Shown here: piece after piece, positions 1,681 through 60,098 of the stretch | Layout: each line of letters starts with the position of its first letter | How positions within the stretch are numbered: the first letter of the stretch is position 1 | NCBI GenBank assembly: GCA_964016885.1 | Contig: OZ024743.1 | Span: 189,100,001 to 189,164,000, forward strand | Length of the DNA stretch: 64,000 nucleotides | Direction: 5' to 3' | DNA from: Eledone cirrhosa | Taxonomy: Eukaryota | Translations under genes and position numbers: made by a program | The notes under the pieces: model-generated | What the model saw: the letters and a program-made list of their open reading frames with translations, nothing else | Told to the model about the DNA's origin: nothing | Databases searched by the model: none

Positions 1681-2525
1681 TTCGTTTCTGAATTTGTTTA
1701 GCAAAATTCTTTATCTGAAAACGTGTGTTGAAACCGATATTGTTATACTTTGGGAGGGTCATGTTGCCAATAAGAACCACACGCACCAGTTGCTTTCACT
1801 TCAATTTGTTATAATAAATTTATAAATTTAGGAATTTATAAATTTCCGGTTGGTTGGTTGGTTCCACAACCAGATGATTGTTTATATATTGTGAAAGTTC
1901 TTTCGTCACGCATTCTGTGACCTCTTCAGTGACTGGGGATTCTTTTCTTTGTTTTTCTGCCTCTCCTTTGTTCTGTCCTACGCCATCTTGTTTTTGTGTG
2001 TGTTGTGTGCTTAGTTTGCGCATGTGTTACATCAAGGTGTCTGTGTGTGTTTATATTTGTTTATTTATTTGTTTATTTACATCATACTGGTTGGTTGCTT
2101 GTTCTATGTGCGTGTGTGTTTTCATTTTGTCCTTAATTGTAAGTTGTGATGTTGCTGTTCCATTCATGTTTTCTATTTAATTTTGGTTGGAGTTCATTTA
2201 TGTTTATTGCTTCTGTGATTTGTCTAAACATTGCGTCTTTTCTGTGTGTAGATTCTATTTTTATTTCAATGTTCTCTAATTTACCCTTATGTTCTATTTT
2301 AGCATGTTGGTAGAGTACACATGATTCTTTACTATCTTGAAGGTCTCGCCAGTGTTCATTTATCCGTTCCACTATACTACGAGCTGTCTCACCTATGTAC
2401 ACTATATTCTTATTTCTACATTGTCCTTCAGTACATCTTATGCTATATATTACATTTCTAGTTTTACAGTTAATATGGGGGCTTCATTTACAGATGATAC
2501 TTTTCTTATCTATACAGGGAGGTCT
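1681..2525 (-). mobile_element. PLE family A 3' fragment (GIY-YIG end + 3' UTR + tail)
   Basis: ORF 2133-2402 YIGETARS...RQITEA matches the C-terminus of 37634-40774. HHR-like core at 1890-1934. Abuts a TA tract at 1681. Confidence 0.9.
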
Positions 2526-7580: not shown

Positions 7581-9731
7581 TGTAGCAGGAGTTGCCTCCC
7601 TTGTTGTGACACTCACATCCCCAATAGATTAACGCTCTCTAGACAGGATGTAGAACCTTTCTGTAACTTCCGGTCAGAACCCTACAAAGCTAACAACTTT
7701 AAGTTCTCTCTCTCTCATTCAACTTTCCGGCGCCTGGCCTCTCATTCGCCCATTTCGGTCAGGCGCCTCCTGGCTTTCGCCAGGAGTCATGTGTCAGGCG
7801 TGTGTAACCCTGGCAACCAAGCGGTAACTAATAACTTTGTTTCATTCTCTCATCTATTCATTGACATGTCAACTATACTGTTCTATATATCCACAAATTG
7901 TTAATTAAATATTATACACACAAACCACGTCTCCTTGTTACATTCATACACACCAGTAATTTGTTATAAGTGGTGACCCCGACGTGATACGAACACGCAG
8001 CCGTTCATTGTTATAAGTTGTGACCCCGAAAAAAGAAAAAATAGCAGAATCTGGTGTTGTGTGAGTAACATTACGAATACACAGCAACATTTTATTGACA
8101 AACTATGAAAATACGCAACCAAGAAACGAACACACCACGCACATGTGAAATTCGCGTTCAGACAGACTTTTTCTCTCACGCATCAACTAACTGTCGCATT
8201 TCACGATATATATATATATATGTTTCTCGTTTCTTACAACGAACACTTTAAAAACAAAAAAAAACAAAAAATTAGATTTTTTTTTAAAAAACATTACAAC
8301 AGGAACATTTATTTTCGATGAACCTCAACCATTGCCTTTTTTTCATCGTTTTCTTCATCGTTCAAGTTTTTTTTCAAAGTTCACACAAAAAATAAAAGAA
8401 AAACAAATTGAACTCGCCATATTTGTTATGCTAAGTGAAGCCTTTCTTTCTTTTTTATCATTATCACTTTCACACACACATTTTGTCCAAAATGGCTGCC
8501 AACGACCTGTTGCATTATCATTTTCGCGCCATTTTCTCGCGCATTAGAAATAACTTTTTATCAACTTAACCATGTTTTGGCACGTGTAGGATTCTCGATT
8601 CACGGAGATATTTCGACTCACAGAGATAGCCGTACGCCAGGGATAAGGTTTCTCGCCAAGGATTCTCCAGCCTTAAGCTATATTCTCCTATTTGCCGGTT
8701 TAAAAATTTACCACGTAAATTTGCCGTTGAAAACTGCGCATTTATTCAGAATGCTTATTTCTTTGGTCGCTGGCCTCTTGCCCCTTCCAGGTCAACGCAT
8801 TCTCAACATCGACCATCAACTTCGGCTGTTATTTCTAGCACTTTGCGCAACTCATTTTTTCTGAAAAAAATTTTTTTACTGTGAATTTAAACATCGGATA
8901 CGCTCACTCTGCGAGACAACAACATCAACAGCAACACAGCTTCATCAACAACCAAAACCAGCAGAACAAGCCAGAGAATTTATTTTTGCAGCACTCTTCC
9001 TGTGAGAAAATCCATTCGGAGGTTGGAAATTTCACAATATACCACAGAACAGAAACCACCTGCATTCATTCTCTGGAACACACTTTCTTTCCTGCTGTCA
9101 TGTGATTGCACACCTGTGAACTATATTTTGTATATTTGAACTTTGAGCTCTTTTCTAACTTTATTACATTGTATCTTTGGGTGATGGATAGATAGATGTC
9201 CAGTCGTTCTCTGGCCAAGAGCGGTTGGCTACCTTGATGTCTATCATTGATTTTTGCAAACATTATTTTATTTATTTTTATTTTTTTCGTAATTTTCATG
9301 CCTGTTACAACATTCTCGCCAACTTGTTACATACATATTTCATTCGATTTTTATATTTTAAAAATCTGGCGGAAAGTAATGTAGCAGGAGTTGCCTCCCT
9401 TGTTGTGACACTCACATCCCCAATAGTTTAACGCTCTCTAGAAGGAAGTAGAACCCTTTCTGTAACTTCCGGTCAGAACCCTATAAAACTAACAACTTTA
9501 AGTTCTCTCTCTCTCATTCAACTTTCCGGCGCCTGGCCTCTCATTCGCCTTTTCGGTCAGGCGCGAGTAACCCTGGCAATCAAACGGTTACTAATAACTT
9601 TGCTTCATTCTTTCATCTATTCATTGACATGTCAACTATACTGTTCTATATATCCACAAATTGTTAATTAAATATTATACACACAAACCACGTCTCCTTG
9701 TTACATTTATACACACTAGTATTTCGCATTA
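7581..9731 (+). mobile_element. Non-autonomous LTR retroelement (Gypsy-like), LTRs 7581-7968 and 9380-9731
   Basis: Direct repeats starting TGTAGCAGGAG. The 5' LTR ends TGTTATA (decayed TGCTACA). GGCC target duplication at 7577-7580 and 9732-9735. Purine-rich GGCGGAAAGTAA precedes the 3' LTR. No convincing ORF in the 1.4-kb interior. Confidence 0.9.
7971..7988 (+). promoter_or_regulatory. Primer-binding site for tRNA-Trp
   Basis: TGGTGACCCCGACGTGAT, 2 nt after the 5' LTR; 18-nt complement of the eukaryotic tRNA-Trp 3' end. Confidence 0.92.
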
Positions 9732-12142
9732 GGCCCAACAACTTGGGAGGAAACCTGTAGAAGGCTCGGTTAGCCTCAAGAAGCGCACAAGGGATGGTGA
9801 GGTAGTATGTCTACCCACGGATAAGTCTGGTAGGATGTCAATAGATAGCATGCCGAACAACATCAAGGCTATGCAACCCCACATCACCAACACGAGCGAA
9901 ATTGCACAGCAAACACATGATGGGAGAGAGAAAATCTTCAACGCTCACATGATGATGTGGACTGACAACCTAAAGCCAAGCAGACGCACTGCCAACAACT
10001 TCCAGGCGTCTAACAATGGCATACCACCCATGTATGGGCTCCGCAAAGACCACAAGACAGTCGACGACCCGACAACAGGACCACCAACAATACCCGTATG
10101 CGGAGCTAATATAGCTAGCAACTACATTATCTCCTACTTCCTCTCAATGGTTATACGTCCCATAATCAAGATGTCCCCAGATGTATGTGACAGTACAGAG
10201 GACCTCCTCAGCAGAATCAGTGAGTGCAACAAAAACAGGAACCTATCCAACTGTATAATAGGCAGCATGGATGTGGTATCACTGTACCCATCCATTAACA
10301 TTGATTTTGCTTGGAAAAATATGTGGAGTTGATCATTTAGAGTGAGGTGGAGATCTGCAACGTCGACACAGACGAACTGGGCCTCCTACTTAGACTAACT
10401 ACGACACTGACTACCTAGACAGCCATGACCTTAGACGTTTCTGCCCTAGTAGACCCATAAGAGGTAGAACCCCCACCATAACCTCAATGGCAAAAAAGAC
10501 TCCCATGGAAAGGTGGATTGGATGGACCAAAGCTATACGGACCCCCCAAAACAATGATCAGGTAAGAAAAATGGTCGCACATGCACTAGGGGCTAGTATC
10601 AAAACTACCCTCAAGGGCCACATATTCAAGTTCAACGAGAAGATCTACACCCAAAATGAGGGAGCAGCCATTGGCGTCAGCATAGCTGGTGATGTTGCCA
10701 ACCTTTTCATGGTATGGTGGGAAAGGAGACTTAAAGATCTCCTTAATGAGAGCTCCATAGACCACATCATGTACTCTCGTTACGTAGACGATATCAATAT
10801 AGTTATAAGAACATCCCCACTAGAGAGCACTAACAAGTTTGATTTAGAACGTAGCACAATGGAAAGCATCCAGCAGATGACTAATTCCATACACCAGAGA
10901 ATAACTGTAACTATCGACTTCCCTTCCAAACACCCTAACAATAGACTACCTGTATTAGACACAGAACTCTGGATTAACACTATAGACGAGAGAGCCCAAA
11001 TTCTCCACTCACACTATGCTAAACCCATGGCCTCCAAATACCTGATACTTAAAAACTCAGCAATGTCCAGTAGTGCTAAGTTTAATATTCTGATCGCAGA
11101 TTTGGTACGAGTGATGAAGAATGTGTCCCGCATGTGCGACCCAAGAGAAATGGAAAGACACATCCAACACTTCATCAACCGCATGCAGTTCTCTGGCTAC
11201 AACCAAAGAGACAGGGTCAAAGTATACGAAGGAGCCATGGAGAAGTATAAGACCATCATAGAACTGGACATGCAAGGAATTTGCCCATTATACAGGAGCA
11301 AATCATGGAATAGCTTAGATAGGGCTAGACATAAGATAGGGAAAGCCACCTCATGGTGCGACAACCAGAGATACCAGAGTGTCATGTTTGTGGACGCTAC
11401 CCCTGAAGGGAAATTAGCTAACCAGTGTAGAAAGGCCCTGAGAAAGACCCACTTAAAAATTAAGGTGGTAGAAAAGCCAGGAACAACCAACCCTTTTAAG
11501 AAAACCCACTGTACCAATAGGAAATGTATCATATGTAAGGTAAACACCCGGATAAACTGTAAAACTAGAAACGTAGTCTATAGTATAAGATGTACAGAGG
11601 GTACTTGCAGAAACATGACAACAACATACATAGGTGAGACAGCTCGTAGCATAGGTGAAAGGATTGACCAACACTGGGGGGAACTAAAAGGACGAAAAAA
11701 CTGGTCAGTACTATACGAACATGCTAGACAACAACATGACGGTAACATAGACAACATAGAAATTAGAATAATATCTAAACATAGAAATGACCCAGCAGAT
11801 AGGCAAATCAGAGAGGCCAGTGAAATAGAAATTAGAAGGCCAAGACTAAACAGAAAGAATGAATGGTATAACAACAACATCCAAACAAACAACACTGACC
11901 TAAGAGAAGTATAAATAAGTAAATAAAATAAAATAAATAAATAAATAAATAAATACATACACAAGCACATAAACACACACTAATCACCCATCACACAGCA
12001 AACAAAACACTATACACACACGCAAACGCATGCGCAAAGAAGACAAAATAAAATAAACAAACAAGCAAATAAATAAATAAATATATAGACAGACTGAATA
12101 AAAATGGCGTAGACATACAATACAACAGGAGGAAACAATAAC

Positions 12143-12184
12143 ACCACTGACGATGTTGCAGATGTGCAACGAAAGATTTATGAT
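12143..12184 (+). ncRNA. Minimal type I HHR in the family B PLE 3' UTR
   Basis: CTGACGA-T-GTTGCA(GATG)TGCAAC-GAAA-GATT-TA; stem I imperfect (ACCA/TGAT). Minus-strand copies at ~29346-29387 and ~32889-32930 have A9C. Confidence 0.7.
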
Positions 12185-12403
12185 AAACTATATATATGTG
12201 TTTGTGTCTATATTGTATCTGTATTATTTTTGACCGTCGGTCAGTCAATGGCAACATTGAGGACCGAGTAAGTTAGATTACCGATATAAAAGACATAGAA
12301 GCGAGAAGCGAAAACCAACCAAACAGTGAGTGTGTTCTATTATTAATTCTGGCAATATTACACAAATATGACCCTCCCCAAGTATAACAATAAATATATA
12401 TAT

Positions 12404-15225: not shown

Positions 15226-15656
15226 AGTTAAAAGAATAGAGGTGTAACACACAAGTTATTATATATTGGTAAACGGAATAGAAAATGCTGACAAATTGTT
15301 CACAGTTGAAAAATGGTTTAATTAGGAATAAAAGAGTATTAGTGATTGTATGGGTTAGTATTCAGTTGTGGTTTTAAGTTCTTAAGTTTTTACCGGTTGC
15401 GCATTTCTAAATGCTTTTCAAAAATAATTTCGAGATAGAGTGTCCGTGGTGTTTGCTCTGATCTGAGCAAACAGCACGGACACTCTATCTCAAAATTATT
15501 TTTGAAAAGCATTTAGAAATGCGCAACCGGTAAAAACTTAAAAACTTAAAACCACAACTGAATACCAACCCATACAATCACTAATACTCTTTTATTCCTA
15601 ATTAAACCATTTTTCAACTGTGAACAATTTGTCAGCATTTTCTATTCCGTTTACCA

Positions 15657-15660
<4 letters not shown>
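15226..15660. mobile_element. Fold-back (palindromic) element with unequal arms
   Basis: 15262-15458 is the reverse complement of 15465-15660; the left arm has ~35 extra nt; TA tracts on both sides. Confidence 0.85.
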
Positions 15661-28994: not shown

Positions 28995-29027
<33 letters not shown>

Positions 29028-29034
29028 AATATAC

Positions 29035-29083
<49 letters not shown>

Positions 29084-29092
29084 TATATATAA

Positions 29093-30364
29093 ATAGTTTT
29101 CCGAGGTTTTTTATATGAAATCGTGTGTCGAAACAAATATTGTTATACTTGGGGAGGGTCATATTTGTGTAATATTGCCAGAATTAATAACAGAACACAG
29201 TCACTGTTTGGTGGGTTTTCGCTTTTCGCTTCTGTGTCTTTTATATCGGTAATCTAATTTATTCGGTCCTCAATGTTGCCATTGACTGACCGGCGGTCAA
29301 AAATAATACAGATACAATATAGACACAAACACATACATATAGTTTATCAGAGTTCTTTCGTTGCACATCTGCAACAGCGTCAGTGGTGCTACTGTTTCCT
29401 CCCGTTGCATTGTATGACTACACCATTTTTATTTAGTCTGTCTATATATTTATTTATTTGTTTGTTCATTTTATTTGTTTGTTTGTTCATTTTATTTTTA
29501 TTTTTCTCTTCTTTGCGCATGCGTTAGCGTGTGTGTTTAGTGTTTTGTTTAATGTGTGTTCGTGATTGGGTGACTAGTGTGTGTTTATATGTGTTTGTTG
29601 TTATTGTGCTTGTGTATCTATATATTTATTTATTTATCTATTTATTTATTTATTTATACTTCTCTTAGTTCAGTGTTCTTTGTTAGGGTGTTGTTGTTAT
29701 TCCATTCATTCTTTCTGTTTAGTCTTGGCCTTCTAAGTTCTATTTCACTGGCCTCTCTGATTTGCCTATCTGCTGGGTCATTTCTATGTTTAGATATTAT
29801 TCTAATTTCTATGTTGTATATGTTACCGTCGTGTTGTTGTCTGGCATGTTTGTATAGTACTGACCCGTTTTTTCGTCCTTTTAGTTCCCCCAGTGTTGGT
29901 CTATCCTTTCACCTATGCTACGAGCTGTCTCGCCTATGTATGTTGTAGTCATGTTTCTGCAAGTACCCTCTGTACCTCTGATACTATAGACTACGTTTCT
30001 AGTTTTACAGTTTATACGGGGGTTTACCTTACATATGATACATTTCCTATTAGTACAGTGGATTTTCTTAAAAGGGTAGGTTTTGCTGATCAGGGATTTT
30101 ATAGTGGTTCCTGGCTTTTCTACCACCTTAATTTTTAAGTGGGTCTTTCTCAGGCCCTTTCTACACTGGTTAGCTAATTTCCCTCCAGGGGTAGCGTCCA
30201 CAAACATGACACTCTGGTATCTCTGGTTGTCGTACCATGAGGTGGCTTTCCCTAACTTATGTCTAGCCCTATCTAAGCTATTCCATGATTTGCTCCTGTA
30301 TAATGGGCAAATTCCTTTCATGTTTCAGTTCTATGAGTGTCTTATACTTCTCCATGGCTCCTTC

Positions 30365-30367
<3 letters not shown>
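29093..30367 (-). mobile_element. PLE family B 3' fragment with tail (frameshifted copy)
   Basis: ORF 29881-30321 matches the C-terminus of 10487-11914. Confidence 0.9.
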
Positions 30368-30401
<34 letters not shown>

Positions 30402-30832: not shown

Positions 30833-30867
<35 letters not shown>

Positions 30868-30874
30868 AATATAT

Positions 30875-31246
<372 letters not shown>

Positions 31247-31271
31247 CGTATATATATATATTTATAAATAT

Positions 31272-31304
<33 letters not shown>

Positions 31305-31307
31305 AAT

Positions 31308-31342
<35 letters not shown>

Positions 31343-31361
31343 AATATATATATATATAAAT

Positions 31362-31394
<33 letters not shown>

Positions 31395-31422
31395 AATATA
31401 TATATATATAAATATATATATA

Positions 31423-31915
31423 CTAGCATTAAAGCCCGGCGTTGATCGGGGTCATTAAGTTACCAAAGTTAGGTTGCACCACCCATTTTACGGCAGCACT
31501 TTTTTGTCTGCCAGGCACTGGGTGAATGAATTTCAGACCAGGAAGCAGAAGCTGCGCCAGCAGTGACAATTGTATTTTCGCCTATGGATATTATCTCTGT
31601 ACAAAAAAGTTTGAAATTTATTGTTTCACAGTACTTGCGCAACACGCGTGTAGACGATGCCAGCCGAACAACAGAGCTGCGATGGAGTTGTTCTGCATGG
31701 TTGTCTGTGTTTTCTAAATTTAAGACAGTAGGTAGGGTTGTGATATGGCGGAGAGTTAGCTGTTGTTTCTAGCAGGTTTAGTGACCTCATAGAGGATATG
31801 TGTTTTCTAAATTTAAGACAGTAGGGAGTGGTGTGATAGGGGGGAGAGTTAGCTGCTGTTACTAGCAGGTTTAGTGACCTCATAGAAGATATGTTTTCTA
31901 AATTTAAGACAGTAA
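31423..31915 (-). mobile_element. Non-autonomous Helitron-like element (copy 34967-35460)
   Basis: Minus-strand end: CCCG..CGGG hairpin then CTAG|T; internal ~85-bp tandem repeats; 5' TC end not identified. Confidence 0.55.
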
Positions 31916-31996
31916 TAAATATATATATATATATATATAAATATATATAAATATATATATATATATATAAATATATATAAATATATATATATATAT

Positions 31997-32348
31997 AAAG
32001 AAAAAGAGATGAAATCGAAAATGCAACTGAAGTCTTATTTTTTTTAAAAATATATATATTTATTTGGTTCCTTTACCGGTTTCGCAGTTCTTCTGCTTTT
32101 CAAAAGGTGAGTTGAGATGGAGGGTCTGTGGTTTTTCTCACAGTGAGAGAAAAACCACAGACCCTCCATCTCAACTCACCTTTTGAAAAGCAGAAGAACT
32201 GCGAAACCGGTAAAGGAACCAAATAAATATATATATTTTTAAAAAAAATAAGACTTCAGTTGCATTTTCGATTTCATCTCTTTTTCTTTATACTTCCACT
32301 CGTGTAGGACACCTCGGTTATTTTTCATTTTGTAAAAAAAAACCTCAC

Positions 32349-32355
<7 letters not shown>
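31997..32355. mobile_element. Fold-back element with U3-A8 HHRs (also 35541-35898, 52613-52969)
   Basis: Palindrome centred ~32143; the right arm extends ~65 nt to ...cctcactttcta; TA flanks. Confidence 0.88.
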
Positions 32356-32379
<24 letters not shown>

Positions 32380-32389
32380 AATATATATG

Positions 32390-32485
<96 letters not shown>

Positions 32486-32490
32486 AATAT

Positions 32491-32527
<37 letters not shown>

Positions 32528-32537
32528 TTAAATATAT

Positions 32538-32570
<33 letters not shown>

Positions 32571-32577
32571 AATATAC

Positions 32578-32626
<49 letters not shown>

Positions 32627-32635
32627 TATATATAA

Positions 32636-33908
32636 ATAGTTTTCCGAGGTTTTTTATATGAAATCGTGTGTCGAAACAAATATTGTTATACTTGGGGAGG
32701 GTCATATTTGTGTAATATTGCCAGAATTAATAACAGAACACAGTCACTGTTTGGTGGGTTTTCGCTTTTCGCTTCTGTGTCTTTTATATCGGTAATCTAA
32801 TTTATTCGGTCCTCAATGTTGCCATTGACTGACCGGCGGTCAAAAATAATACAGATACAATATAGACACAAACACATACATATAGTTTATCAGAGTTCTT
32901 TCGTTGCACATCTGCAACAGCGTCAGTGGTGCTACTGTTTCCTCCCGTTGCATTGTATGACTACACCATTTTTATTTAGTCTGTCTATATATTTATTTAT
33001 TTGTTTGTTCATTTTATTTGTTTGTTTGTTCATTTTATTTTTATTTTTCTCTTCTTTGCGCATGCGTTAGCGTGTGTGTTTAGTGTTTTGTTTAATGTGT
33101 GTTCGTGATTGGGTGACTAGTGTGTGTTTATATGTGTTTGTTGTTATTGTGCTTGTGTATCTATATATTTATTTATTTATCTATTTATTTATTTATTTAT
33201 ACTTCTCTTAGTTCAGTGTTCTTTGTTAGGGTGTTGTTGTTATTCCATTCATTCTTTCTGTTTAGTCTTGGCCTTCTAAGTTCTATTTCACTGGCCTCTC
33301 TGATTTGCCTATCTGCTGGGTCATTTCTATGTTTAGATATTATTCTAATTTCTATGTTGTATATGTTACCGTCGTGTTGTTGTCTGGCATGTTTGTATAG
33401 TACTGACCCGTTTTTTCGTCCTTTTAGTTCCCCCCAGTGTTGGTCTATCCTTTCACCTATGCTACGAGCTGTCTCGCCTATGTATGTTGTAGTCATGTTT
33501 CTGCAAGTACCCTCTGTACCTCTGATACTATAGACTACGTTTCTAGTTTTACAGTTTATACGGGGGTTTACCTTACATATGATACATTTCCTATTAGTAC
33601 AGTGGATTTTCTTAAAAGGGTAGGTTTTGCTGATCAGGGATTTTATAGTGGTTCCTGGCTTTTCTACCACCTTAATTTTTAAGTGGGTCTTTCTCAGGCC
33701 CTTTCTACACTGGTTAGCTAATTTCCCTCCAGGGGTAGCGTCCACAAACATGACACTCTGGTATCTCTGGTTGTCGTACCATGAGGTGGCTTTCCCTAAC
33801 TTATGTCTAGCCCTATCTAAGCTATTCCATGATTTGCTCCTGTATAATGGGCAAATTCCTTTCATGTTTCAGTTCTATGAGTGTCTTATACTTCTCCATG
33901 GCTCCTTC

Positions 33909-33911
<3 letters not shown>
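32636..33911 (-). mobile_element. PLE family B 3' fragment with intact GIY-YIG frame
   Basis: ORF 33197-33865: CTNRKCIICK...NVVYSIR...YIGETARSIGERIDQH...RQIREA. Confidence 0.9.
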
Positions 33912-33945
<34 letters not shown>

Positions 33946-34376
33946 TATATATTTTGAGTTTATGTTGGTTGTATACCAACACCTCAGTATGCAGGCTGGA
34001 GCACTCGACGAAGTGCGCAGGTTGGTTTGGTTACTCCGGAGTAGTGTAAAATAAAGTTAAATAAAAGTCAAATGATTAAAATTTAGCTTCGTTTATTACT
34101 GCTATATATATTTCAGTGACAGCCATCTTTGGCTGTGACCTCTCATATGACTCCTGTTCCCCAGTGAATTAACAACCCAGCAAGGAACTGGGCATATCAG
34201 AGTATTGACAATATCATACACCTAAACAACATATGTACTTGTCTATACCATACTAATTCAAACTGCCTGAAGAGGTCACAGCCAAAGATGGCTGTCACTG
34301 AAATATATATAGCAGTAATAAACGAAGCTAAATTTTAATCATTTGACTTTTATTTAACTTTATTTTATAAATATAT

Positions 34377-34411
<35 letters not shown>

Positions 34412-34669
34412 AATATATATTTGCCTAGTTACACCCTCTGGATATTTAGCTCCTTTATTTGCCTAGTTACACCCTCTGGATATTTAGCTCCTTTATTTGC
34501 CTAGTTACACCCTCTGGATATTTAGCTCCTTTATTTGCCTAGTTACACCCTCTGGATATTTAGCTCCTTTATTTGCCTAGTTACACCCTCTGCATATTTA
34601 GCTACTTCATTTGCCTAGTTACACCCTCTGGATATTTAGCTCCTTTATTTGCGTAGTTACACCCTCTGG

Positions 34670-34786
<117 letters not shown>

Positions 34787-34811
34787 CGTATATATATATA
34801 TTTATAAATAT

Positions 34812-34844
<33 letters not shown>

Positions 34845-34847
34845 AAT

Positions 34848-34882
<35 letters not shown>

Positions 34883-34901
34883 AATATATATATATATAAA
34901 T

Positions 34902-34934
<33 letters not shown>

Positions 34935-35892
34935 AATATATATATATATAAATATATATATATATACTAGCATTAAAGCCCGGCGTTGCTCGGGGTCATT
35001 AAGTTACCAAAGTTAGGTTGCACCACCCATTTTACGGCAGCACTTTTTTGTCTGCCAGGCACTGGGTGAATGAATTTCAGACCAGGAAGCAGAAGCTGCG
35101 CCAGCAGTGACAATTGTATTTTCGCCTATGGATATTATCTCTGTACAAAAAAGTTTGAAATTTATTGTTTCACAGTACTTGCGCAACACGCGTGTAGACG
35201 ATGCCAGCCGAACAACAGAGCTGCGATGGAGTTGTTCTGCATGGTTGTCTGTGTTTTCTAAATTTAAGACAGTAGGTAGGGTTGTGATATGGCGGAGAGT
35301 TAGCTGTTGTTTCTAGCAGGTTTAGTGACCTCATAGAGGATATGTGTTTTCTAAATTTAAGACAGTAGGGAGTGGTGTGATATGGGGGAGAGTTAGCTGC
35401 TGTTACTAGCAGGTTTAGTGACCTCATAGAAGATATGTTTTCTAAATTTAAGACAGTAATAAATATATATATATATATATATAAATATATATAAATATAT
35501 ATATATATATATAAATATATATAAATATATATATATATATAAAGAAAAAGAGATGAAATCGAAAATGCAACTGAAGTCTTATTTTTTTTAAAAATATATA
35601 TATTTATTTGGTTCCTTTACCGGTTTCGCAGTTCTTCTGCTTTTCAAAAGGTGAGTTGAGATGGAGGGTCTGTGGTTTTTCTCACAGTGAGAGAAAAACC
35701 ACAGACCCTCCATCTCAACTCACCTTTTGAAAAGCAGAAGAACTGCGAAACCGGTAAAGGAACCAAATAAATATATATATTTTTAAAAAAAATAAGACTT
35801 CAGTTGCATTTTCGATTTCATCTCTTTTTCTTTATACTTCCACTCGTGTAGGACACCTCGGTTATTTTTCATTTTGTAAAAAAAAACCTCAC

Positions 35893-35933
<41 letters not shown>

Positions 35934-35939
35934 TATATG

Positions 35940-36041
<102 letters not shown>

Positions 36042-36046
36042 AATAT

Positions 36047-36181
<135 letters not shown>

Positions 36182-36207
36182 GTATATATATATATATATA
36201 AATATAC

Positions 36208-36256
<49 letters not shown>

Positions 36257-36332
36257 TATATATAAATATATATATTTATATATATATATATATAAATATA
36301 TATATAAATATATATATAAATATATATATATA

Positions 36333-37599
36333 TTTCGTTTCTGAATTTGTTTAGCAAGATTCTTTATCTGAAATCCTGTTTTGAAACCGATATTGTTATA
36401 CTTTGGGAGGGTCATGTTGCCAATAAGAAACACACGCACCAGTTGCTTTCACTTCAATTTATTATATATTTATAAATTTATAAATTTACAAATCTACAAA
36501 CTTATAAATTTCTGGTTGGTTGATTGGTTCCACAACCAGATAGTTGTTTATGTATAGTCATAGTCCTTTCGTCACACACTCTGTGACCTCTTCAGTGACT
36601 GGGGATTCCTTTCTTTGTTTCTGTGCCTTTCCTTTCTTCCATCCTACGCCATTTTGTTTCTGTGTGTGTGTTGTGTGCTCAATTTGCGCATGCGCCACAT
36701 CCGGGTGTCTGTGTGTGTTTGTGTTCATTTATCTATTTGTTTATTTATTTATTTATTTATTGTTGTTTGGTTGTTTGTTCTATGTGTGTGTGTGTTTTCA
36801 TTTTGTCCTGTGCGTGTTTTCATTTTGCCCTTAATTGTAAGTTGTTTGTTCTATGTGTGTGTTTGTGTGTTTTCATTTTGTCCTGTGTATGTTTTCATTT
36901 TGTCCTTAATTGTAAGTTGTGATGTTGCTGTTCCACTCATATTTTCTATTTAATTTTGGTTGTAATTCTTTTATGCTTACTGCCTCTGTAATTTGCCTAA
37001 ACATTGCATCTTTTCTGTGTGTGGATTCTATTTTTATTTCTATGTTCTCTAATCTACCCCTGTGTTCTATCCTAGCATGTTGGTAGAGCACAGATGATTC
37101 TTTATTATCTTGAAGGTCTCGCCAGTGTTCATTTATTCGTTCTCCTATACTACGAGCTGTCTCACCTATGTACACTATATTTTTGTTTCTACATTGTCCT
37201 TCAGTACATCTTATGCTATACACTACATTTCTAGTTTTACAGTTAATATGGGGGCTTATTTTACAGGTTATACATTTCTTATTTATACATGAGGGTCTTT
37301 GGAACGTGTATGTCTTGCTAATAAGTGTTTTTACGGAGGTACCTTGTCTTTCTACTATCTTAATATTGAGTTTATGTTTATTTAGGGCCCTTCTAAATTT
37401 GTAGGCTAGTTCGCCTCTAGGGGTTGTATTGATGAACATTACACTCTGGTATTTATTGCTATCATACCATGAGTTTATTCTATTGGCCTTGTTCCTAGTT
37501 CTTTCAATTCTATTCCACACTTTGCTCCTATACAAGGGGCAGGTCCCATTTATGTCATTATTTACCATTTTTTCCCATTTGGTTCTGGCTCCTCTATAC
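36333..37599 (-). mobile_element. Inverted 3' copy (pseudo-LTR-like) of PLE family A with tail
   Basis: Reverse complement of 40081-41212 plus ~50 extra nt; ORF 36906-37568; HHR at 36556-36600. Confidence 0.95.
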
Positions 37600-37633
37600 C
37601 AATAGATATCCCGACAAAATTGACGGTATCAAC

Positions 37634-40600
37634 ATGGCCGACACCTCATTATCAGAAGAGTTCAACAACAAAAATACCAACATTTATGGGAACACGGAAA
37701 TAGATAATAATGAAATGTCTGTGTTATGTCTGCCGCCCAAATTTGCGACATTCAAGAAGGTAAATATGATTAGTTGTCTGTCAGAAATAGAAAAATCATT
37801 TACAAAACTACGCTGGAGCATCAAAAACAAAAGCAACAATATACGCAAACACATATACAACACACATCCCAACAACAACATACACACAGACACAAACAAC
37901 AATAACAACAACACACACATCAACAACAACAACAATAGCAACATACCCAGCTACAACAACAACATACACGCAGACACAAACAACAATAACAACACACACA
38001 ACAACGATAACACACACGGAGACAACAACAATACACATCAACAACAGCACACATCAACAACAACAACACACACGCATTCAATGCCTCTCACCGCCACCAC
38101 AATCTTAACAAACACACAGACACAGAAAACAAGTAATAACAGTAGCACAGAAATCAGAGAAATAAGGGAAAGTAATAGGATTAAAAGGAAAAGGAGATGG
38201 GAGACTAAGGACAAAGAGAATAACCAAGACGAACACACAGACACACAAAATAGGGTAGATAACAACATTGAGCCAGTGGAAAGAGACAGGAGTAATTATG
38301 AGAGACATAGAAACAACCATGAGGCTGTTGGTGGAAATAGAAATAGAAACAACACAACTAACAATAACAATAGCACTAGTACACATAAAGCAGCAGCCTG
38401 TAACTCTCCGTTTTATAATCCCTCCGATAAATCATTCGACCTGCGACGAGTCCACGCCACGACTTTACCATTTAACAAACGCACGCAGTTGCCGTCGCAG
38501 GTCGATGAACAAACAGAAGCACAATTTAGTATAGCTAAATCCGAACTTAGAAATATTATAGAACAGTATAGCAAGAAGCATAATAGAATAGAGGCCCAGC
38601 AACTGGGAGAAAAATCTGCAAATGGCTTGCGTAAGCTCATGCAGCGCTCGCGTAATGGAGAGATAGCATGCTTTCCAACAGACAAGTCTGGCAGAATGTC
38701 GGTTGACAGCCTGCCAAACTACATACAGGCAATGCAATCCCACATCACTAACACAAGAGAGGTAACACCACAGGAGCATGAGGATAGAGAAAAAGCCCTC
38801 AATGCCCATATGGTGATGTGGACGAATATAATGCAGCCCAACAAAAGGACTGCCAACAACTTCCAGGCCTGGAACAATGACGTGCCGGCGTTGTATGGGC
38901 TTCGAAAAGACCATAAAACGGGCTGGGACCCTGTCGCGGGACCACCAACACGGCCAGTCTGTGGAGCTAACATTTCTAGTAACTACAGACTGTCCTACTT
39001 CCTCTCCCTGATCATACGCCCCATCATTGAGATGTCCCCAGATGTATGTGACAGCACGGTGTACCTCCTCAGCAGAATCGGCGCGGGTAACCGATCTGGG
39101 GACCTAACAAACTGCATAATAGGCAGTATGGATGTTGTGTCCCTGTATCCATCTATTGACGTGGATTTTGCTGTGGAGAAATGCGTAGAAATGATCAGCG
39201 AGAGCAAGGTTGAGTTTCGTGGGATTGATACCAGTGAGCTGGGACTTCTTCTTAAGCTTACCCATAGTAATAGTTACCTAGACACTTATGACCTGTGCCC
39301 TACAAGACCAGCAAGAGGCAGACCACCTACCATTACCTCAATGGCCAAGAAAACCCACACAGATAGATGGAACGGGTGGACCAGAGCCATACGGACACCC
39401 GAAAACCACGATGAACTGAAGAAAATGATTGCACATGCAGTAGGGGCCAGCATAAAATTAACCCTTAAGGAACATATGTTCAAATTTAATGGTAAAACAT
39501 ATGCCCAAGAGGAAGGAGCAGCCATTGGTGTTAGCATTGCAGGCGACATAGCTAACTTATTCATGGTATGGTGGGACAGTAGACTTAAACAAAAATTTAA
39601 AGAACAATTAGAAGACAGCTTAACGCTGATAATGTACTCCCGCTACGTAGATGATATAAACATCGTAGTTAAGACACCCCCACTAAAGAACTGTCAGGAA
39701 CTAGAGAAAAACACAATGGACATCATCCAGCAAATAGCAAACTCCATCCACCAGAGCATTAGAGTTACTATAGACTACCCAAGTAGATACGCCAACCATC
39801 GATTACCTGTACTAGACACAGAGCTCTGGTTAGATACCATTAACAACCAAAAACAAATCCTCCATTCCCATTATGCCAAACCCATGACTTCCAAACATCT
39901 GATCCACCGAAACTCGGCCATTTCGGACCATACCAAAATCAACATACTGATTGCGGATTTGGTACGGGTGATGAGAAATGTGTCCCGCATGTGCAACCCC
40001 GAAGAACTAGAGAGACACATACAACACTTCATCCACCGTATGCAGTTCTCTGGCTACAATCAGAGAGATAGAATCAGAGTGTATAGAGGAGCCAGAACCA
40101 AATGGGAAAAAATGGTAAATAATGACATAAATGGGACCTGCCCCTTGTATAGGAGGAAATTTTGGAATAGAATAGAAAGAACTAGGAGCAAGGCCAATAG
40201 AATAAACTCATGGTATGATAGAAATAAATACCAGAGTGTAATGTTCATCAATACAACCCCTAGAGGCGAACTAGCCTACAAATTTAGAAGGGCCCTAAAT
40301 AAACATAAACTCAATATTAAGATAGTAGAAAGACCAGGTACCTCCGTAAAAACACTTATTAGCAAGACATACCCGTTCCAAAGACCCTCATGTATAGATA
40401 AGAAATGTATAACCTATAAAATAAGCCCCCATATTAACTGTAAAACTAGAAATGTAGTGTATAGCATAAGATGTACTGAAGGACAATGTAGAAACAAAAA
40501 TATAGTGTACAAAGGTGAGACAGCTCGTAGTATAGGGGAACGAATAAATGAACACTGGCGAGACCTTCAAGATAATAAAGAATCATCTGTGCTCTACCAA

Positions 40601-40774
40601 CATGCTAAGATAGAACACAGGGGTAGATTAGAGAACATAGAAATAAAAATAGAATCCACACACAGAAAAGATGCAATGTTTAGGCAAATTACAGAGGCAG
40701 TAAGCATAAAAGAATTACAACCAAAATTAAATAGAAAATATGAGTGGAACAGCAACATCACAACTTACAATTAA
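37634..40774 (+). CDS. PLE family A polyprotein: RT + Cys-rich linker + GIY-YIG endonuclease (5'-truncated at the inversion junction 37600)
   Basis: PTDKSGR, YGLRKDHK, TRPVCG, SMDVVSLYPS, GAAIGVS, YSRYVDD, LPVLD, HYAKP, VVY...YKGETARS. The upstream frame NRYPDKIDGIN aligns with family B KYPGNINNIR, so the ATG is internal. Confidence 0.96.
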   Translation: MADTSLSEEFNNKNTNIYGNTEIDNNEMSVLCLPPKFATFKKVNMISCLSEIEKSFTKLRWSIKNKSNNIRKHIYNTHPNNNIHTDTNNNNNNTHINNNNNSNIPSYNNNIHADTNNNNNTHNNDNTHGDNNNTHQQQHTSTTTTHTHSMPLTATTILTNTQTQKTSNNSSTEIREIRESNRIKRKRRWETKDKENNQDEHTDTQNRVDNNIEPVERDRSNYERHRNNHEAVGGNRNRNNTTNNNNSTSTHKAAACNSPFYNPSDKSFDLRRVHATTLPFNKRTQLPSQVDEQTEAQFSIAKSELRNIIEQYSKKHNRIEAQQLGEKSANGLRKLMQRSRNGEIACFPTDKSGRMSVDSLPNYIQAMQSHITNTREVTPQEHEDREKALNAHMVMWTNIMQPNKRTANNFQAWNNDVPALYGLRKDHKTGWDPVAGPPTRPVCGANISSNYRLSYFLSLIIRPIIEMSPDVCDSTVYLLSRIGAGNRSGDLTNCIIGSMDVVSLYPSIDVDFAVEKCVEMISESKVEFRGIDTSELGLLLKLTHSNSYLDTYDLCPTRPARGRPPTITSMAKKTHTDRWNGWTRAIRTPENHDELKKMIAHAVGASIKLTLKEHMFKFNGKTYAQEEGAAIGVSIAGDIANLFMVWWDSRLKQKFKEQLEDSLTLIMYSRYVDDINIVVKTPPLKNCQELEKNTMDIIQQIANSIHQSIRVTIDYPSRYANHRLPVLDTELWLDTINNQKQILHSHYAKPMTSKHLIHRNSAISDHTKINILIADLVRVMRNVSRMCNPEELERHIQHFIHRMQFSGYNQRDRIRVYRGARTKWEKMVNNDINGTCPLYRRKFWNRIERTRSKANRINSWYDRNKYQSVMFINTTPRGELAYKFRRALNKHKLNIKIVERPGTSVKTLISKTYPFQRPSCIDKKCITYKISPHINCKTRNVVYSIRCTEGQCRNKNIVYKGETARSIGERINEHWRDLQDNKESSVLYQHAKIEHRGRLENIEIKIESTHRKDAMFRQITEAVSIKELQPKLNRKYEWNSNITTYN

Positions 40775-41004
40775 GGACAAAATTAAAACACACACAGGAC
40801 AAAATGAAAACACACACACACATAGAACAAACAACCAACCAACAATAAATAAATAAATAAATAAGCAAATAGATAAATGAACACAAACACACACAGACAC
40901 CCGGATGTGGCGCATGCGCAAACTGAGCACACAACACACACACAGAAACAAAACGGCGTAGGATGGAAGAAAGGAAAGGCACAGAAACAAAGAAAGGAAT
41001 CCCC

Positions 41005-41049
41005 AGTCACTGAAGAGGTCACAGAGTGTGTGACGAAAGGACTATGACT
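41005..41049 (+). ncRNA. Minimal type I HHR in the family A 3' UTR (copies 36556-36600(-), 55960-56004(-), 56458-56502(+), 57963-58007(+), 1890-1934(-))
   Basis: AGTCA-CTGAAGA-G-GTCAC(AGAGTGT)GTGAC-GAAA-GGAC-TA-TGACT. Confidence 0.9.
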
Positions 41050-41207
41050 ATATATAAACAACTATCTGTTTGTGGAACCAACCAACCAACCAGAAATTTA
41101 TAAGTTTGTAGATTTGTAAATTTATAAATTTATAAATATATAATAAATTGAAGTGAAAGCAACTGGTGCGTGTGTTTCTTATTGGCAACATGACCCTCCC
41201 AAAGTAT

Positions 41208-41299
<92 letters not shown>

Positions 41300-41301
<2 letters not shown>

Positions 41302-41960
41302 GAATGTATATATAGTGTAATTTGCAATACACTGTATGCTTAATAAAAAGCATTTTGAAAACCTTATGCTATTGTTTTAGAGTAGTGACAGACTCACTTA
41401 CTTTAATTTCAGCAAACATAGGGAGATAAAGCTGACAAGGCCTTGTTTCTGCATTTATTGATGCCTATCAAAGCAAACTACTCCTCCCGTTTGCTGAGAA
41501 TCTGGATGTTTTGGTTCTTATAGAATTCTAGTAAATAATCAGGAACTGATTATACAGAGCGGTTGCCGGTCAAGCAGAAATTAAAAATTAGAATTGTTGC
41601 TCTGAAATAGCTATATATATATATATATATATATGAATGTATATATAGTGTATTTTGCAATAAAGTGTATGCTTAATAAAAAGCATTTTGAAGACCTTAT
41701 GCTTTTGTTTTAGTGTAGTGACAGACTCACTTACTTTAATTTCAGCAAACAATAAATGTAGAAACAATAAATGCAGAAACAAGGTCTTGTCAGATTTATC
41801 TCCCCCTTTTTGCTGAAATTAAAGTAAGTGAGTCTGTCACTACTCTAAAACAATAGCATAAGGTCTTCAAAATGCTTTTTATTAAGCATACAATGTATAG
41901 CAAAATACACTATATATACATTCATATATATATAGCTATTTCAGAGCAACAATTCTAATG
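41300..41960. repeat. Direct + inverted copies of a ~120-bp unit
   Basis: 41300-41418 repeats at 41633-41750 and is inverted at 41808-41925. Confidence 0.8.
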
Positions 41961-43481: not shown

Positions 43482-43703
43482 TATCACGATAAATTAACGG
43501 AGGCATAGGCCCTCGTTATTTCCTGTAAATAATGTGCTCAAAGGAGAAGAGATCCTGAGCTCTTTAAAATACATTATGTTGAGAAGGTAACACACCAGAG
43601 AGAGATATACCTTATTACCTTCTCAACATTTTGTTTGTATTATTGATAACGCACTATATATCTCTCTCTGGTGTGTTACCTTCTCAACATATTGTATATA
43701 AAT

Positions 43704-53345: not shown

Positions 53346-53450
53346 TTCGTTTTTGAATTTGTTTAGCAAGATTCTTTATCTGAAATCGCGTGTTGAATCT
53401 GATATTGTTATACTTTGGGAGGGTCATGTTGCCAATTAGAAACACACGCA

Positions 53451-53528
<78 letters not shown>

Positions 53529-55750: not shown

Positions 55751-56643
55751 TTCGTTTTTGAATTTGTTTAGCAAGATTCTTCATCTGAAATCGTGTGTTG
55801 AAACCGATATTGTTATACTTTGGGAGGGTCATGTTGCCAATAAGAAACAACACACGCAACAGTTGCTTTCACTTCAATTTATTATATATTTATGAATTTA
55901 CAAATTTATAAATTTCTGGTTGGTTGGTTGGTTCCACAACCAGATAGTTGTTTATATATAGTCATAGTTCTTTCGTCACATACTCTGTGACCTATTCAGT
56001 GACTGGGGATTCCTTTCTTTGTTTCTGTGCCTCTCCTTTGCTCTGTCCTACGCCATTTTGTTTCTGTGTGTGTACTCTACCAACATGCTAAAATAGAAAA
56101 CAAGAGTAAATTAGAGAACATAGAAATAAAAATAGAATCTACACACAGAAAAGACGCAATGTTTAGACAAATTACAGAGGCAATAAACATAAAAGAATTA
56201 CAACCAAAATTAAATAGAAAATACGAGTGGAACAGCAACATCACTACTTACAATTAAGGACAAAATGAAAACACACACACACATAGAACAAACAACCAAC
56301 CAGTAACATGTAAATAAACAAATAAATAAATGAACATAAACACACACAGACACCCGGATGTGGCGCATGCGCAGACTGAGCACACAACACACACACAGAA
56401 ACAAAATGGCGTAGGACAGAAGAAAGGAGAGGCACAGAAACAAAGAAAGTAATCCCCAGTCACTGAAGAGGTCACACAGTGTATGACGAAATAACTATGA
56501 CTATATATAAACAACTATCTGGTTGTGGAACCAACCAACCAACCAGAAATTTATAAATTTGTAAATTTATAAATATATAATAAATTGAAGTGAAAGCAGC
56601 TGGTGCGTGTGTTCTTATTGGCAACATGACCCTCCCAAAGTAT

Positions 56644-56650
<7 letters not shown>
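55751..56650. mobile_element. Short family A PLE insertion: inverted tailed arm (55751-56072) + direct arm (56073-56650)
   Basis: Both arms match 40590-41212; junction inside ORF 56027-56257. Confidence 0.92.
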
Positions 56651-56787: not shown

Positions 56788-57250
56788 ACGATATTAAATA
56801 AATGGAAACTATATTTATAAAACCATATTTATTTCATTATATATATTTCAGGGATATCATATTAAAAATATGGTATGCCTTCTTCAGACAAAATACAATA
56901 TAAACAGTCTTATAAATAGATAGATATGACATACCTTACAACTTCAACTTCCATTTAAAAAGTTGATTTGGTAATACCAAATCAACTTTTTAAATGGAAG
57001 TTGAAGTTGTAAGGTTATGTCAAATCTATCTATTTATAAGACTGTTTATATTTTATTTTGTCTGAAGAAGGCATACCATATTTTTAATATGATATCCCTG
57101 AAATATATATAATGAAATAAATATGGTTTTATAAATATAGTTTCCATTTATTTAATATCGTAAATATACTCCAAATACTTGTTGAGTGCTTTTATATCAG
57201 TTATAAATATTTACTCGTTGTAACCCAACAATTTAAATAAAACTTTGCAT
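56788..57250. mobile_element. Fold-back HHR element (family of 27581; similar at 59657-60097 and 49097-49341)
   Basis: Palindrome centred ~56974; right arm ~85 nt longer. Confidence 0.88.
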
Positions 57251-57843: not shown

Positions 57844-58165
57844 TTCGTTTCTGAATTTGTTTAGCAACTGAGCACACAAACTGAGCACACAACACACACA
57901 CAGAAACAAAATGGCGTAGGATAGAAGAAAGGAAAGGCACAGAAACAAAGAAAGGAATCCCCAGTCACTGAAGAGGTCACAGAGTGTGTGACGAAAGGAC
58001 TATGACTATATATAAACAACTATCTGGTTGTGGAACCAACCAACCAGAAATCTATAAGTTTGTAAATTTGTAAATTTATAAATTTATAAATATATAATAA
58101 ATTGAAGTGAAACAACTGGTGCGTGTGTTTCTTATTGGCAACATGACCCTCCCAAAGTATAACAA
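57844..58165 (+). mobile_element. Minimal family A PLE insertion: ~24-nt inverted tail + ~300-nt direct 3' UTR
   Basis: ttcgtttctgaatttgtttagcaa joined to ctgagcacac...cccaaagtataacaat. Confidence 0.9.
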
Positions 58166-58199: not shown

Positions 58200-59182
58200 A
58201 ATATATATATAAATATAAAAATATATATAAATATAAATATAAATATATATATAAATATATATATAAATATAAATATATATACAAATATAAATATATATAT
58301 ATATATGCAAAAGTTTTATTCTCCAAAAACAACGGTCAATTTTTAAAAGGGGTACGTCAATGTCTATTTATAAAACTGTTATATATTGTATTTTGTCTGA
58401 TGAAGGCATGCCATAATGTAACTTGGTATCCTTGAAATATATATATTGAAATAAATATGGTTTTATAAATATAGTTTCCATTTATTAATATCGTATATAA
58501 ATCTATATATAAATATAAAAATATATATAAATATATATATAAAAATATAAATATATAAATATATATATAAATATAAATATATAAATATATATATAATATA
58601 AATATATATATAAATATATATATAAATATAAATATATAAATATATATATAAATATAAATATATAAATATATATATAAATATAAATATATATATAAATATA
58701 TATATAAATATAAATATATAAATATATATATAAATATAAATATATAAATATATATATAAATATAAATATATAAATATGTATATAAATATATAAATATATA
58801 TATAAATATATATATAAATATATATATAAATATATATATAAATATATATATAAATATATATATAAATATATATATATAAATATATATATATAAATATATA
58901 TATAAATATATATATAAATATACATATAAATATAAATTCATATATAAATATATATATAAATATATATATACATATAAATATATATATAAATATATGCAAA
59001 AGTTTTATTCTCCAAAAACAACGGTGAATTTTTAAAAGGGGTACGTCAATGTCTATTTATAAAACTGTTATATATTGTATTTTGTCTGATGAAGGCATAC
59101 CATAATGTAACTTGGTATCCTTGAAATATATATAATGAAATAAATATGGTTTTATAAATGTAGTGTCCATTTTTTAATATCG

Positions 59183-59646: not shown

Positions 59647-60098
59647 AATATATATATGCAAAGTTTTATTTAAATTGTTGGGTTAACAACGAGTAAATAT
59701 TTATAACTGATATAAAAGCACTCAACAAGTATATGGAGTATATTTACGATATTAAATAAATGGAAACTATATTTATAAAACCATATTTATTTCATTATAT
59801 ATATTTCAGGGATATCATATTAAAAATGTTATGCCTTCTAGTTGCATGCATTTCTTCTTTTTCTTCGTTTTTCTTTCTTTCTTTTTATAACTGTCCCTAA
59901 TATTTTTTCACTACCAAATCAACTTTTCAAATAGAAGTCGAAGTTGAAAGGTATGTCGAATCTATCTATTTATAAGACTGTTTATATTGTATTTTGTCTG
60001 AAGAAGGCATAACATAATTTTAATATGATATCCCTGAAATATATATAATGAAATAAATATGGTTTTATAAATATAGTTTCCATTTATTTAATATCGAT

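What the first reader, a model, noticed from the sequence alone, without database searches (positions are those of the whole stretch)
36333..41212. Shared asymmetric two-ended architecture: one tailed 3' end and one shorter 3' end per insertion
Seen: in family A the direct arm stops at ...aagtataacaat (41212, 56650, 58165) while the inverted arm runs ~50 nt further to ...(g/a)aaacgaa (36333, 55751, 57844; also 1681, 53346). The same rule holds with family-specific tails for family B (12391 vs 29093), 15226-15660 (~35 nt), 25236-25650 (~100), 31997-32355 (~65), 56788-57250 / 59657-60097 / 58306 / 58994 (~85), 43486-43697, and the 559-bp array (~120). Short ends fall at AT/TATA words. Known: PLEs often have inverted pseudo-LTRs with a short tail. 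Inference: two priming events per insertion, one at the RNA end and one at a fixed internal TA-complementary site, on opposite strands of a cut microsatellite.
Basis: partly seen in the sequence, partly recalled or inferred. Interest (0 to 1): 0.78.

Follow-up and report, generated by a model that had tools for sequence, protein, structure and literature searches.

The report
Twin hairpins set Penelope insertion ends
These are insertions of Penelope-like jumping genes whose two mirror-image halves almost always end at two different fixed points, and in one lineage each point sits just before a copy of the same small hairpin motif, which likely tells the enzyme where to start copying on each strand of the cut DNA.

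Summary
In five Penelope-like element (PLE) families, 139 of 141 classifiable head-to-head insertions pair one short end with one tailed end; independent neighbours are mixed 31 of 51 times. One-armed copies also occur (35 of 150 loci), and either arm can carry the tail.

Both ends are internal sites near the ORF start, as published for an anole PLE (PMC11167929). 'Tail at one end' is also known.

Not found in print: in the Hydra-type lineage (families D, E, plus G, H), a copy of one bulged hairpin lies 2-11 nt past each end, and hairpin spacing matches tail length. In distant relatives from metagenomes, 28 of 44 leaders carry two copies, and 10 of 13 readable ends fall 0-5 nt before one. Short TA microhomologies and roughly 13-14-nt target duplications fit priming from both target strands.

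Family A, the finding's own element (Neptune-like), obeys the pairing rule but shows no such hairpin pair. This scan had noted a single copy of the hairpin in another genome.

The parts
36334..37599 (-). Family A inverted arm, 5'-truncated, ending at the tailed site (tail 36334-36393, codons about 9-28 of the ORF)
37595..41211 (+). Family A direct arm, lacking about 168 N-terminal codons, ending at the short site
37595..37599 (.). Head-to-head junction, 5-nt overlap shared by both arms
37595..40774 (+). Truncated RT plus C-terminal GIY-YIG-like ORF (the 1091-aa stop-to-stop frame starts at 37499, inside the inverted arm); Neptune-like motifs
   Evidence: no Pfam hit for this protein
41010..41038 (+). 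Hammerhead-like core in the pLTR (mirror copy 36567-36595 on the minus strand)
   Evidence: pattern match; no Rfam hammerhead hit
41190..41215 (+). ORF start codon inside the pLTR up to the short site, with 4-nt TA microhomology
35899..36333 (.). (TA)n target array, left flank
41212..41314 (.). (TA)n target array, right flank
55751..56647 (.). Family A two-armed stump, tail left, short right
57844..58164 (.). Family A stump with a 24-nt tailed arm and a short-ended arm
1681..2525 (-). Family A one-armed tailed copy
53346..53454 (-). Family A one-armed tailed copy
9731..12392 (+). Family B (Neptune-like, sister of A) one-armed short-ended copy
29096..30365 (-). Family B one-armed tailed copy (duplicated at 32639-33909)
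15227..15660 (.). Family C two-armed stump; ORF-bearing copy at L079/L080
25236..25650 (.). Family E (Hydra-type) two-armed stump; first hairpin 25288-25327 (minus); also 30409-30823 with hairpin 30459-30498
31998..32354 (.). Family F two-armed stump (also 35542-35898, 52615-52969, 53531-55027); no ORF-bearing copy found
56788..57248 (.). Family D (Hydra-type) two-armed stump; first hairpin 57168-57187
59658..60097 (.). Family D two-armed stump; hairpin 59720-59739 (minus)
58307..58496 (.). D-like stump with a tailed arm of about 20 nt (also 58996-59185)
43486..43697 (.). Family G two-armed stump; hairpin 43536-43560 (minus); tandem copy with both hairpins at L287
18851..22298 (.). Family H 559-bp tandem array with an inverted tailed arm; both hairpins in each unit (e.g. 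19514-19537 and 19631-19655)

Best explanation
Two-armed insertions of these Penelope-like elements carry one short and one tailed end because the enzyme likely cuts both strands of a (TA)n target and primes reverse transcription from both cut ends, at two different internal sites of the element RNA that in the Hydra-type lineage are likely positioned by two copies of one hairpin. Shown: two fixed ends per family, both internal to the element near the ORF start; one-of-each pairing; 2-7 nt TA microhomology at each site; 11-16-nt target duplications where readable; a bulged hairpin (RYUC-N...N'-UN-GARY) just 3' of each site, with spacing equal to tail length. Inferred: a staggered cut leaves two 3' overhangs; two RT active sites (probably a dimer) each dock on one hairpin and start a few bases 5' of it, at the best local TA match; the two cDNAs are then joined head to head. 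Least certain: that one RNA molecule serves both starts, with the downstream-primed strand displacing the upstream one. For families A, B, C and F the same twin priming is inferred, but what fixes their sites is not identified.
For: Pairing 139 of 141 versus control 31 of 51. De novo, 217 of 226 TA-flanked inverted segments are offset by 25 nt or more (loci were picked around families A-F, so not a random sample). Read-through of the tailed site in tandem copies. Short-ended arm longer than the tailed arm in 28 of 84, by more than 300 nt in 12. Arms of one insertion are closer than arms of different insertions: A 0.018 vs 0.050, B 0.042 vs 0.058, D 0.008 vs 0.013, F 0.025 vs 0.033. Target duplications: 15 of 17 calls are 11-16 nt; three clear ones are 14 nt and overlap the element's terminal microhomology. 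Hairpin at the start of the tail in 31 of 60 tail clusters (shuffles 1.4, reverse strand 1), 4-11 nt from the short site in 27 of 31. Second copy after the tailed site in D, E, G, H and one more family by the strict rule, and near-matches by eye in three more. Hairpin spacing versus site spacing: 90/92, 99/96, 117/118, 83/88. Out of sample: 28 of 44 metagenome leaders have two copies (shuffles 0.045), and 10 of 13 readable ends lie 0-5 nt before one, 6 at the first and 4 at the second. Compensatory changes at 3 of 6 pairs. In vitro precedent: both strands cut and extended, two internal starts, predicted dimer (PMC11167929).
Against: No duplicated motif in A or B, so the hairpin cannot explain the finding's own element. 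Two true tail/tail insertions (L208, L225) and at least 35 of 150 one-armed loci. In the anole assay start sites did not differ between strands and were not homologous to the target. Central junctions show 2 nt or more of overlap in only 15 of 48, with gaps in 24. No excess of tailed arms stopping at the short site, as simple one-RNA collision would give (read). Arm similarity is weak in E (p 0.08), reversed in one B copy (L193), and could come from gene conversion. Only 9 of 25 insertions with informative flanks gave a duplication. The G-U strand test was flat (15 vs 18). The motif rule was refined after seeing the tails, and the hairpins were chosen as motif-bearing; only searches are out of sample.
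Confidence: 0.7

Rival explanations
1. One reading: one priming event at the transcript's 3' end (tail) and one at an internal TA-complementary site.
For: Two ends, mixed pairing and TA microhomology are all real. A transcript from a tail-ended copy could stop near the tail.
Against: The tailed site is internal in tandem copies of seven families. It has its own hairpin 3' of it in the Hydra-type lineage. Longer TA runs go unused at 12 of 14 sites.
Confidence: 0.04
2. One priming event at the tailed site; the cDNA folds back and copies itself (or self-priming on an antisense template, PMC3846280), and the endonuclease trims the second arm at the short site ('EN-mediated resolution', PMC8557442).
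For: Explains identical arms and mixed pairing with one RT. Near-equal arms in 18 of 84, some palindromic centres, and correlated arm extents (partly an effect of locus size).
Against: A fold-back copy cannot be longer than the strand it copies, yet the short-ended arm is longer in 28 of 84, by up to about 3.3 kb. One-armed short-ended copies exist. The same hairpin follows both sites, which suggests the same reaction at both.
Confidence: 0.12
3. Twin priming on two separate RNA molecules held by an asymmetric dimer, each RNA offering both sites.
For: No strand displacement is needed. Arm lengths vary freely, and occasional mismatched arms occur (L193, L225).
Against: Needs an extra asymmetry to give 139 of 141 mixed pairs. 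Own-partner arms are usually the closer match, even for rare D subfamilies.
Confidence: 0.12
4. Assembly or alignment artefact at microsatellites.
For: TA arrays in the window have a strong strand-biased impurity (309 vs 13), which may be read error.
Against: The same base-exact ends occur on many contigs, in non-TA targets with duplications and in other organisms.
Confidence: 0.01

Closest known systems
PAc, the Poseidon PLE of Anolis carolinensis (Frangieh et al. 2024, PMC11167929; main text read)
   Same: Two internal RT start sites near the ORF start bound the tail; both target strands are cut and extended; AT-rich targets; predicted dimer; a stem-loop at the start region.
   Different: There the tail is 30-40 bp, starts are reported as non-homologous to the target and alike on both strands, and no pairing rule or repeated hairpin is reported. 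Here tails are 33-165 nt, sites carry TA microhomology, ends pair one-of-each, and a hairpin is duplicated.
PLE inverted pLTR with optional tail (PMC3846280, passages and Discussion; PMC8557442, passages)
   Same: Head-to-head inverted 5'-truncated copy; tail on one of the inverted pLTRs; pLTR plus tail covering the first codons; target duplications of 8-10 bp.
   Different: Described as optional and explained by self-priming or nuclease resolution. Here it is quantified as near-obligate for two-armed copies, and simple fold-back is disfavoured by arm lengths.
Hydra clade of C-terminal EN+ PLEs (PMC8557442, section read)
   Same: Family D and its homologues show the listed protein motifs, hammerhead cores and (TA)n targets.
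   Different: The family D unit is about 3.8 kb rather than under 3 kb. The paired hairpins are not mentioned in the passages read or found by the supplement term search.
L1 twin priming
   Same: Both target strands prime cDNA, giving an inversion joined in the middle.
   Different: In L1 the second start is variable and the arms do not overlap. Here both starts are fixed and both arms copy the same pLTR.
Non-LTR retrozymes as non-autonomous PLE derivatives (bioRxiv 10.64898/2026.07.22.740005, first fifth read)
   Same: The tandem G and H units look like pLTR-derived non-autonomous repeats and obey the same end rule.
   Different: My pattern found no hammerhead core in the window's H array. 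Both hairpins are kept in each unit.

Membership tests
EN+ Penelope-like element | Single ORF with RT and C-terminal GIY-YIG endonuclease | tested here: met
   RT hit on family B (below Pfam cut-off). Homologues named RT-domain proteins, one with PF01541. YxDD and GIY-YIG-like motifs read.
EN+ Penelope-like element | Partial-tandem pLTR that includes the ORF start | tested here: met
   L004, L012, L240, L280, L321-L330
EN+ Penelope-like element | Inverted 5'-truncated copy with tail at one end | tested here: met
EN+ Penelope-like element | Hammerhead motif in pLTR | tested here: inconclusive
   Core plus stem II by pattern in A, B, D, E; no Rfam hammerhead hit; cleavage untested.
Hydra clade (families D, E) | RWK motif, no conserved GxKF/Y | tested here: met
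   RWR in D, RWK in E; RW[KR]A in 73 of 120 homologues, 0 of 120 A homologues
Hydra clade (families D, E) | DKG modified to DKT | tested here: met
   DKT in D; 107 of 120 homologues; E copy reads DKA
Hydra clade (families D, E) | CxCX5C linker; CxxC and CxH around the conserved E and N | tested here: met
   All three in D; 105, 107 and 104 of 120 homologues
Hydra clade (families D, E) | CCHH motif absent from the endonuclease | tested here: inconclusive
   Not seen by eye in D; no alignment to labelled references
Hydra clade (families D, E) | Generally short (under 3 kb) | tested here: not met
   ORF 742 aa but unit about 3.8 kb; the paper gives this as a tendency, not a diagnostic
Hydra clade (families D, E) | RT phylogeny groups with named Hydra families | not tested
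   No labelled reference sequences were in hand
Neptune or Nematis clade (families A, B) | CX2-5CxxC linker before the endonuclease | tested here: inconclusive
   Degenerate in A (last Cys missing); present in 104 of 120 homologues
Neptune or Nematis clade (families A, B) | RT phylogeny | not tested
   No labelled references; 'Neptune-like' rests on motifs only
DNA transposon / MITE with terminal inverted repeats | Symmetric terminal inverted repeats flush at both ends | tested here: not met
   217 of 226 offset by 25 nt or more; arm lengths vary copy to copy; ORF-bearing copies encode RT

The most novel reading that the evidence does not exclude
Hydra-type Penelope elements carry a tandem pair of protein-docking hairpins in their leader, conserved across distant animals, that load two RT protomers on one RNA molecule. 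A single RNA is then copied twice, onto both ends of a staggered double-strand cut. The tail is simply the distance between the two docking sites, and only tandem copies that keep both hairpins can seed new two-armed insertions.
Probability: 0.45. Interest if true: 0.82.

Novelty: new variant of a known kind. Interest (0 to 1): 0.66.

Why it matters
How PLEs build their inverted pLTRs and one-sided tail is named as an open question in the papers read (PMC8557442, PMC11167929). A near-obligate one-of-each rule plus a defined, covarying pair of cis elements gives a specific twin-priming model. It can be tested with point mutants in an existing in vitro assay. It also gives a sequence marker for recognising short PLE stumps, which look like MITEs, in repeat annotation. 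PLE RTs are the sister group of telomerase, so an RNA element that sets the start of the template is of comparative interest.

Tried and rejected
Rfam scan of the window: only chance miRNA-type hits on the palindromes, no hammerhead. Search for the family F tail found nothing, and no F master was found. RNA evidence: no RNA holder listed, which is no evidence either way; no reads were laid. Dimer prediction for the family D protein was not available, so the dimer rests on the published anole model only. Duplicated motif in families A and B: none beyond a shared AATAT in A. Microhomology at the central junction: inconclusive. G-U strand test: flat, although the CUC/GAG stem forms in 112 of 125 folds. 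Link between TA-array impurity polarity and element orientation: rejected, since polarity is locus-wide and both orientations occur. Telomerase-like synthesis of the TA arrays by the element: not testable without empty alleles. Literature searches for a PLE dimer structure, PLE twin priming, Neptune initiation, a Hydra hairpin and post-2024 initiation work found nothing describing paired hairpins. The library lacks most subscription papers; Fig. S2 and the sequence file of PMC11167929 could not be read and may bear on whether the anole element has a similar pair.
Full report
1. Observation. Masking the TA arrays and comparing the window with itself shows many inserts between (TA)n arrays whose two ends are inverted copies of unequal reach. 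Every coordinate cited checks out within a few bases. The element at 36334-41211 is a 1.27-kb inverted arm joined through a 5-nt overlap to a 3.6-kb direct arm with a truncated RT-endonuclease frame. Its nearest named protein is from Octopus vulgaris, 68% identical. The family A tail is 60 nt. Some cited ends (1681, 53346, 12391, 29096) belong to one-armed copies and are not pairs.

2. Genome-wide test. I searched the genome with arm-interior queries for families A, B, D, E and F (30 loci each, best hits only, so biased to young copies) and fetched stretches of up to 10 kb for unresolved copies. Ends are sharply bimodal: in A, 20 at ATG+26 and 23 at ATG+86 of 57 aligned ends, and likewise in B, D, E and F. 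Of 144 head-to-head pairs, 138 were mixed, 4 same-type and 2 unclassified (eight A pairs came from tail-selected loci). Two same-type calls were mis-parses (a deletion inside the tail at L102, an internal junction at L240) and one pair was a duplicate. That leaves 139 mixed, 2 tail/tail and no short/short. Neighbouring copies separated by a TA array are 31 mixed and 20 same (Fisher p 2e-11). A family-blind scan of 321 loci found 226 TA-flanked inverted segments flush at one end, 217 of them offset by 25 nt or more. One-armed copies of either type remain common: 35 of 150 loci with 10 kb seen, 10 unresolved.

3. Both ends are internal. Tandem-junction copies continue past the tailed end. In A the sequence is the start of the ORF, so the short end is near codon 9 and the tailed end near codon 28; B is homologous, with its tailed end spread over several TA or AT steps. 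In C, D and E the tailed end lies in the leader about 30-60 nt before an ORF; in G and H it runs into the next tandem unit. This matches the anole element, where two internal RT starts bound the tail (PMC11167929), and the rotifer elements, where pLTR plus tail cover the first 22 codons (PMC3846280).

4. Signs of priming from both target strands. All 14 sites with a known template share 2-7 nt with (TA)n, 11 of them 3 nt or more where 7% or fewer of nearby positions would; longer TA runs nearby are unused at 12 of 14. Family E tailed ends abut CT runs in 9 of 25 cases against 3 of 376 for other ends, so the flank type follows the family's own site. Target duplications were called 17 times, 15 of them 11-16 nt; the three clearest are 14 nt and overlap the terminal microhomology, but only 9 of 25 insertions with informative flanks gave one. 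The short-ended arm reaches further 5' in 28 of 84 cases and the tailed arm in 38, which a fold-back copy of a tail-primed strand cannot do. Arms of one insertion are more alike than arms of different ones in A, B, D and F, weakly in E; gene conversion could mimic this. The central junctions are uninformative.

5. What fixes the two sites. In families D, E, G and H the same bulged hairpin follows both sites: a 4-bp stem RYUC/GARY, a 2-nt bulge starting with U on the 3' side, then a variable stem. Its spacing equals the distance between the ends: 90/92, 99/96, 117/118 and 83/88 nt. It opens the tail in 31 of 60 tail clusters (shuffles 1.4, reverse strand 1, shifted window 0), 4-11 nt from the short end in 27 of 31; this rule was refined after seeing those tails. 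The unconstrained outer pair is A-U 13 times and G-C 13 times of 32. The independent test used relatives from metagenome contigs at 32-38% protein identity (78 loci). Of 44 non-redundant leaders, 28 have two copies, 12 one and 4 none (shuffles with two: 0.045), spaced 55-92 nt. Of 25 second copies of a leader, 12 ran off the contig; of the other 13, 10 end 0-5 nt before a hairpin, 6 at the first and 4 at the second. An alignment of 22 chosen hairpins shows compensatory change at 3 of 6 pairs. Family D meets the protein diagnostics of the Hydra clade. Families A and B are Neptune-like by motif and show no duplicated element; C and F lack the hairpin as well.

6. Mechanism. Most likely the enzyme makes a staggered cut in (TA)n, and two RT active sites each start a few bases 5' of a docking element on the RNA, using a short TA match to seat the primer. 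One cDNA therefore lacks the tail and the other has it, and the two are joined head to head. Because each hairpin lies 3' of its start, the first is copied only into the tailed arm and the second is kept only in tandem copies. The dimer, the protein-hairpin contact and the use of one RNA for both starts are inferred; no binding, RNA or activity data were obtained.

7. Known and new. The inverted pLTR, the one-sided tail (PMC3846280, PMC8557442) and two internal starts (PMC11167929) are published. I found no report of the one-of-each count, of microhomology at both sites, or of paired hairpins (searches; passages of PMC4209133 and PMC13282606; supplement term search). Verdict: a real feature, a new variant of a known kind, interest 0.66.

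Noticed in passing
window, all TA arrays: Impurities in the TA arrays are strongly strand-biased (309 vs 13); other loci show the same locus-wide bias in either direction. Possibly long-read error or regional mutation bias; unrelated to element orientation.
   Followed up: partly
window 28812-32354 and 32355-35898: A 3.5-kb block is duplicated in tandem at about 99.9% identity, including its TA arrays: a recent duplication or an assembly artefact.
   Followed up: no
G000:C6:65207154-65228791; G000:C1526:115928-125737: Family A occurs as arrays of up to six full 4.27-kb units and as head-to-head full-length tandems; at least 150 junction copies, many with open frames near 1280 aa. Family D likewise has at least 150.
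   Followed up: no
window 37860-38400; L321 ORF residues about 480-500: Asn/Thr/His-rich low-complexity stretches inside the ORFs, as described for rotifer Penelope elements (PMC3846280).
   Followed up: no
family A pairs L212, L047, L203, L216; family D and F stumps: Many stumps have both arms stopping at about the same 5' point (about 260 nt before the short site in A, about 150 in D and F), which may mark the transcript start in the pLTR.
   Followed up: partly
   Followed up: partly
L079/L080, just left of the window: ORF-bearing copy of family C; C, F and a few 40-60-nt-tail families lack the hairpin but share short ACAC-type motifs after their ends.
   Followed up: partly
L321:6464-7813 (minus): A further intact-looking 449-aa RT plus GIY-YIG PLE fragment of another lineage.
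   Followed up: no
neighbouring copies facing tail to tail: Mixed ends are in mild excess (20 vs 8) among independent neighbours facing each other across a TA array; unexplained.
   Followed up: no
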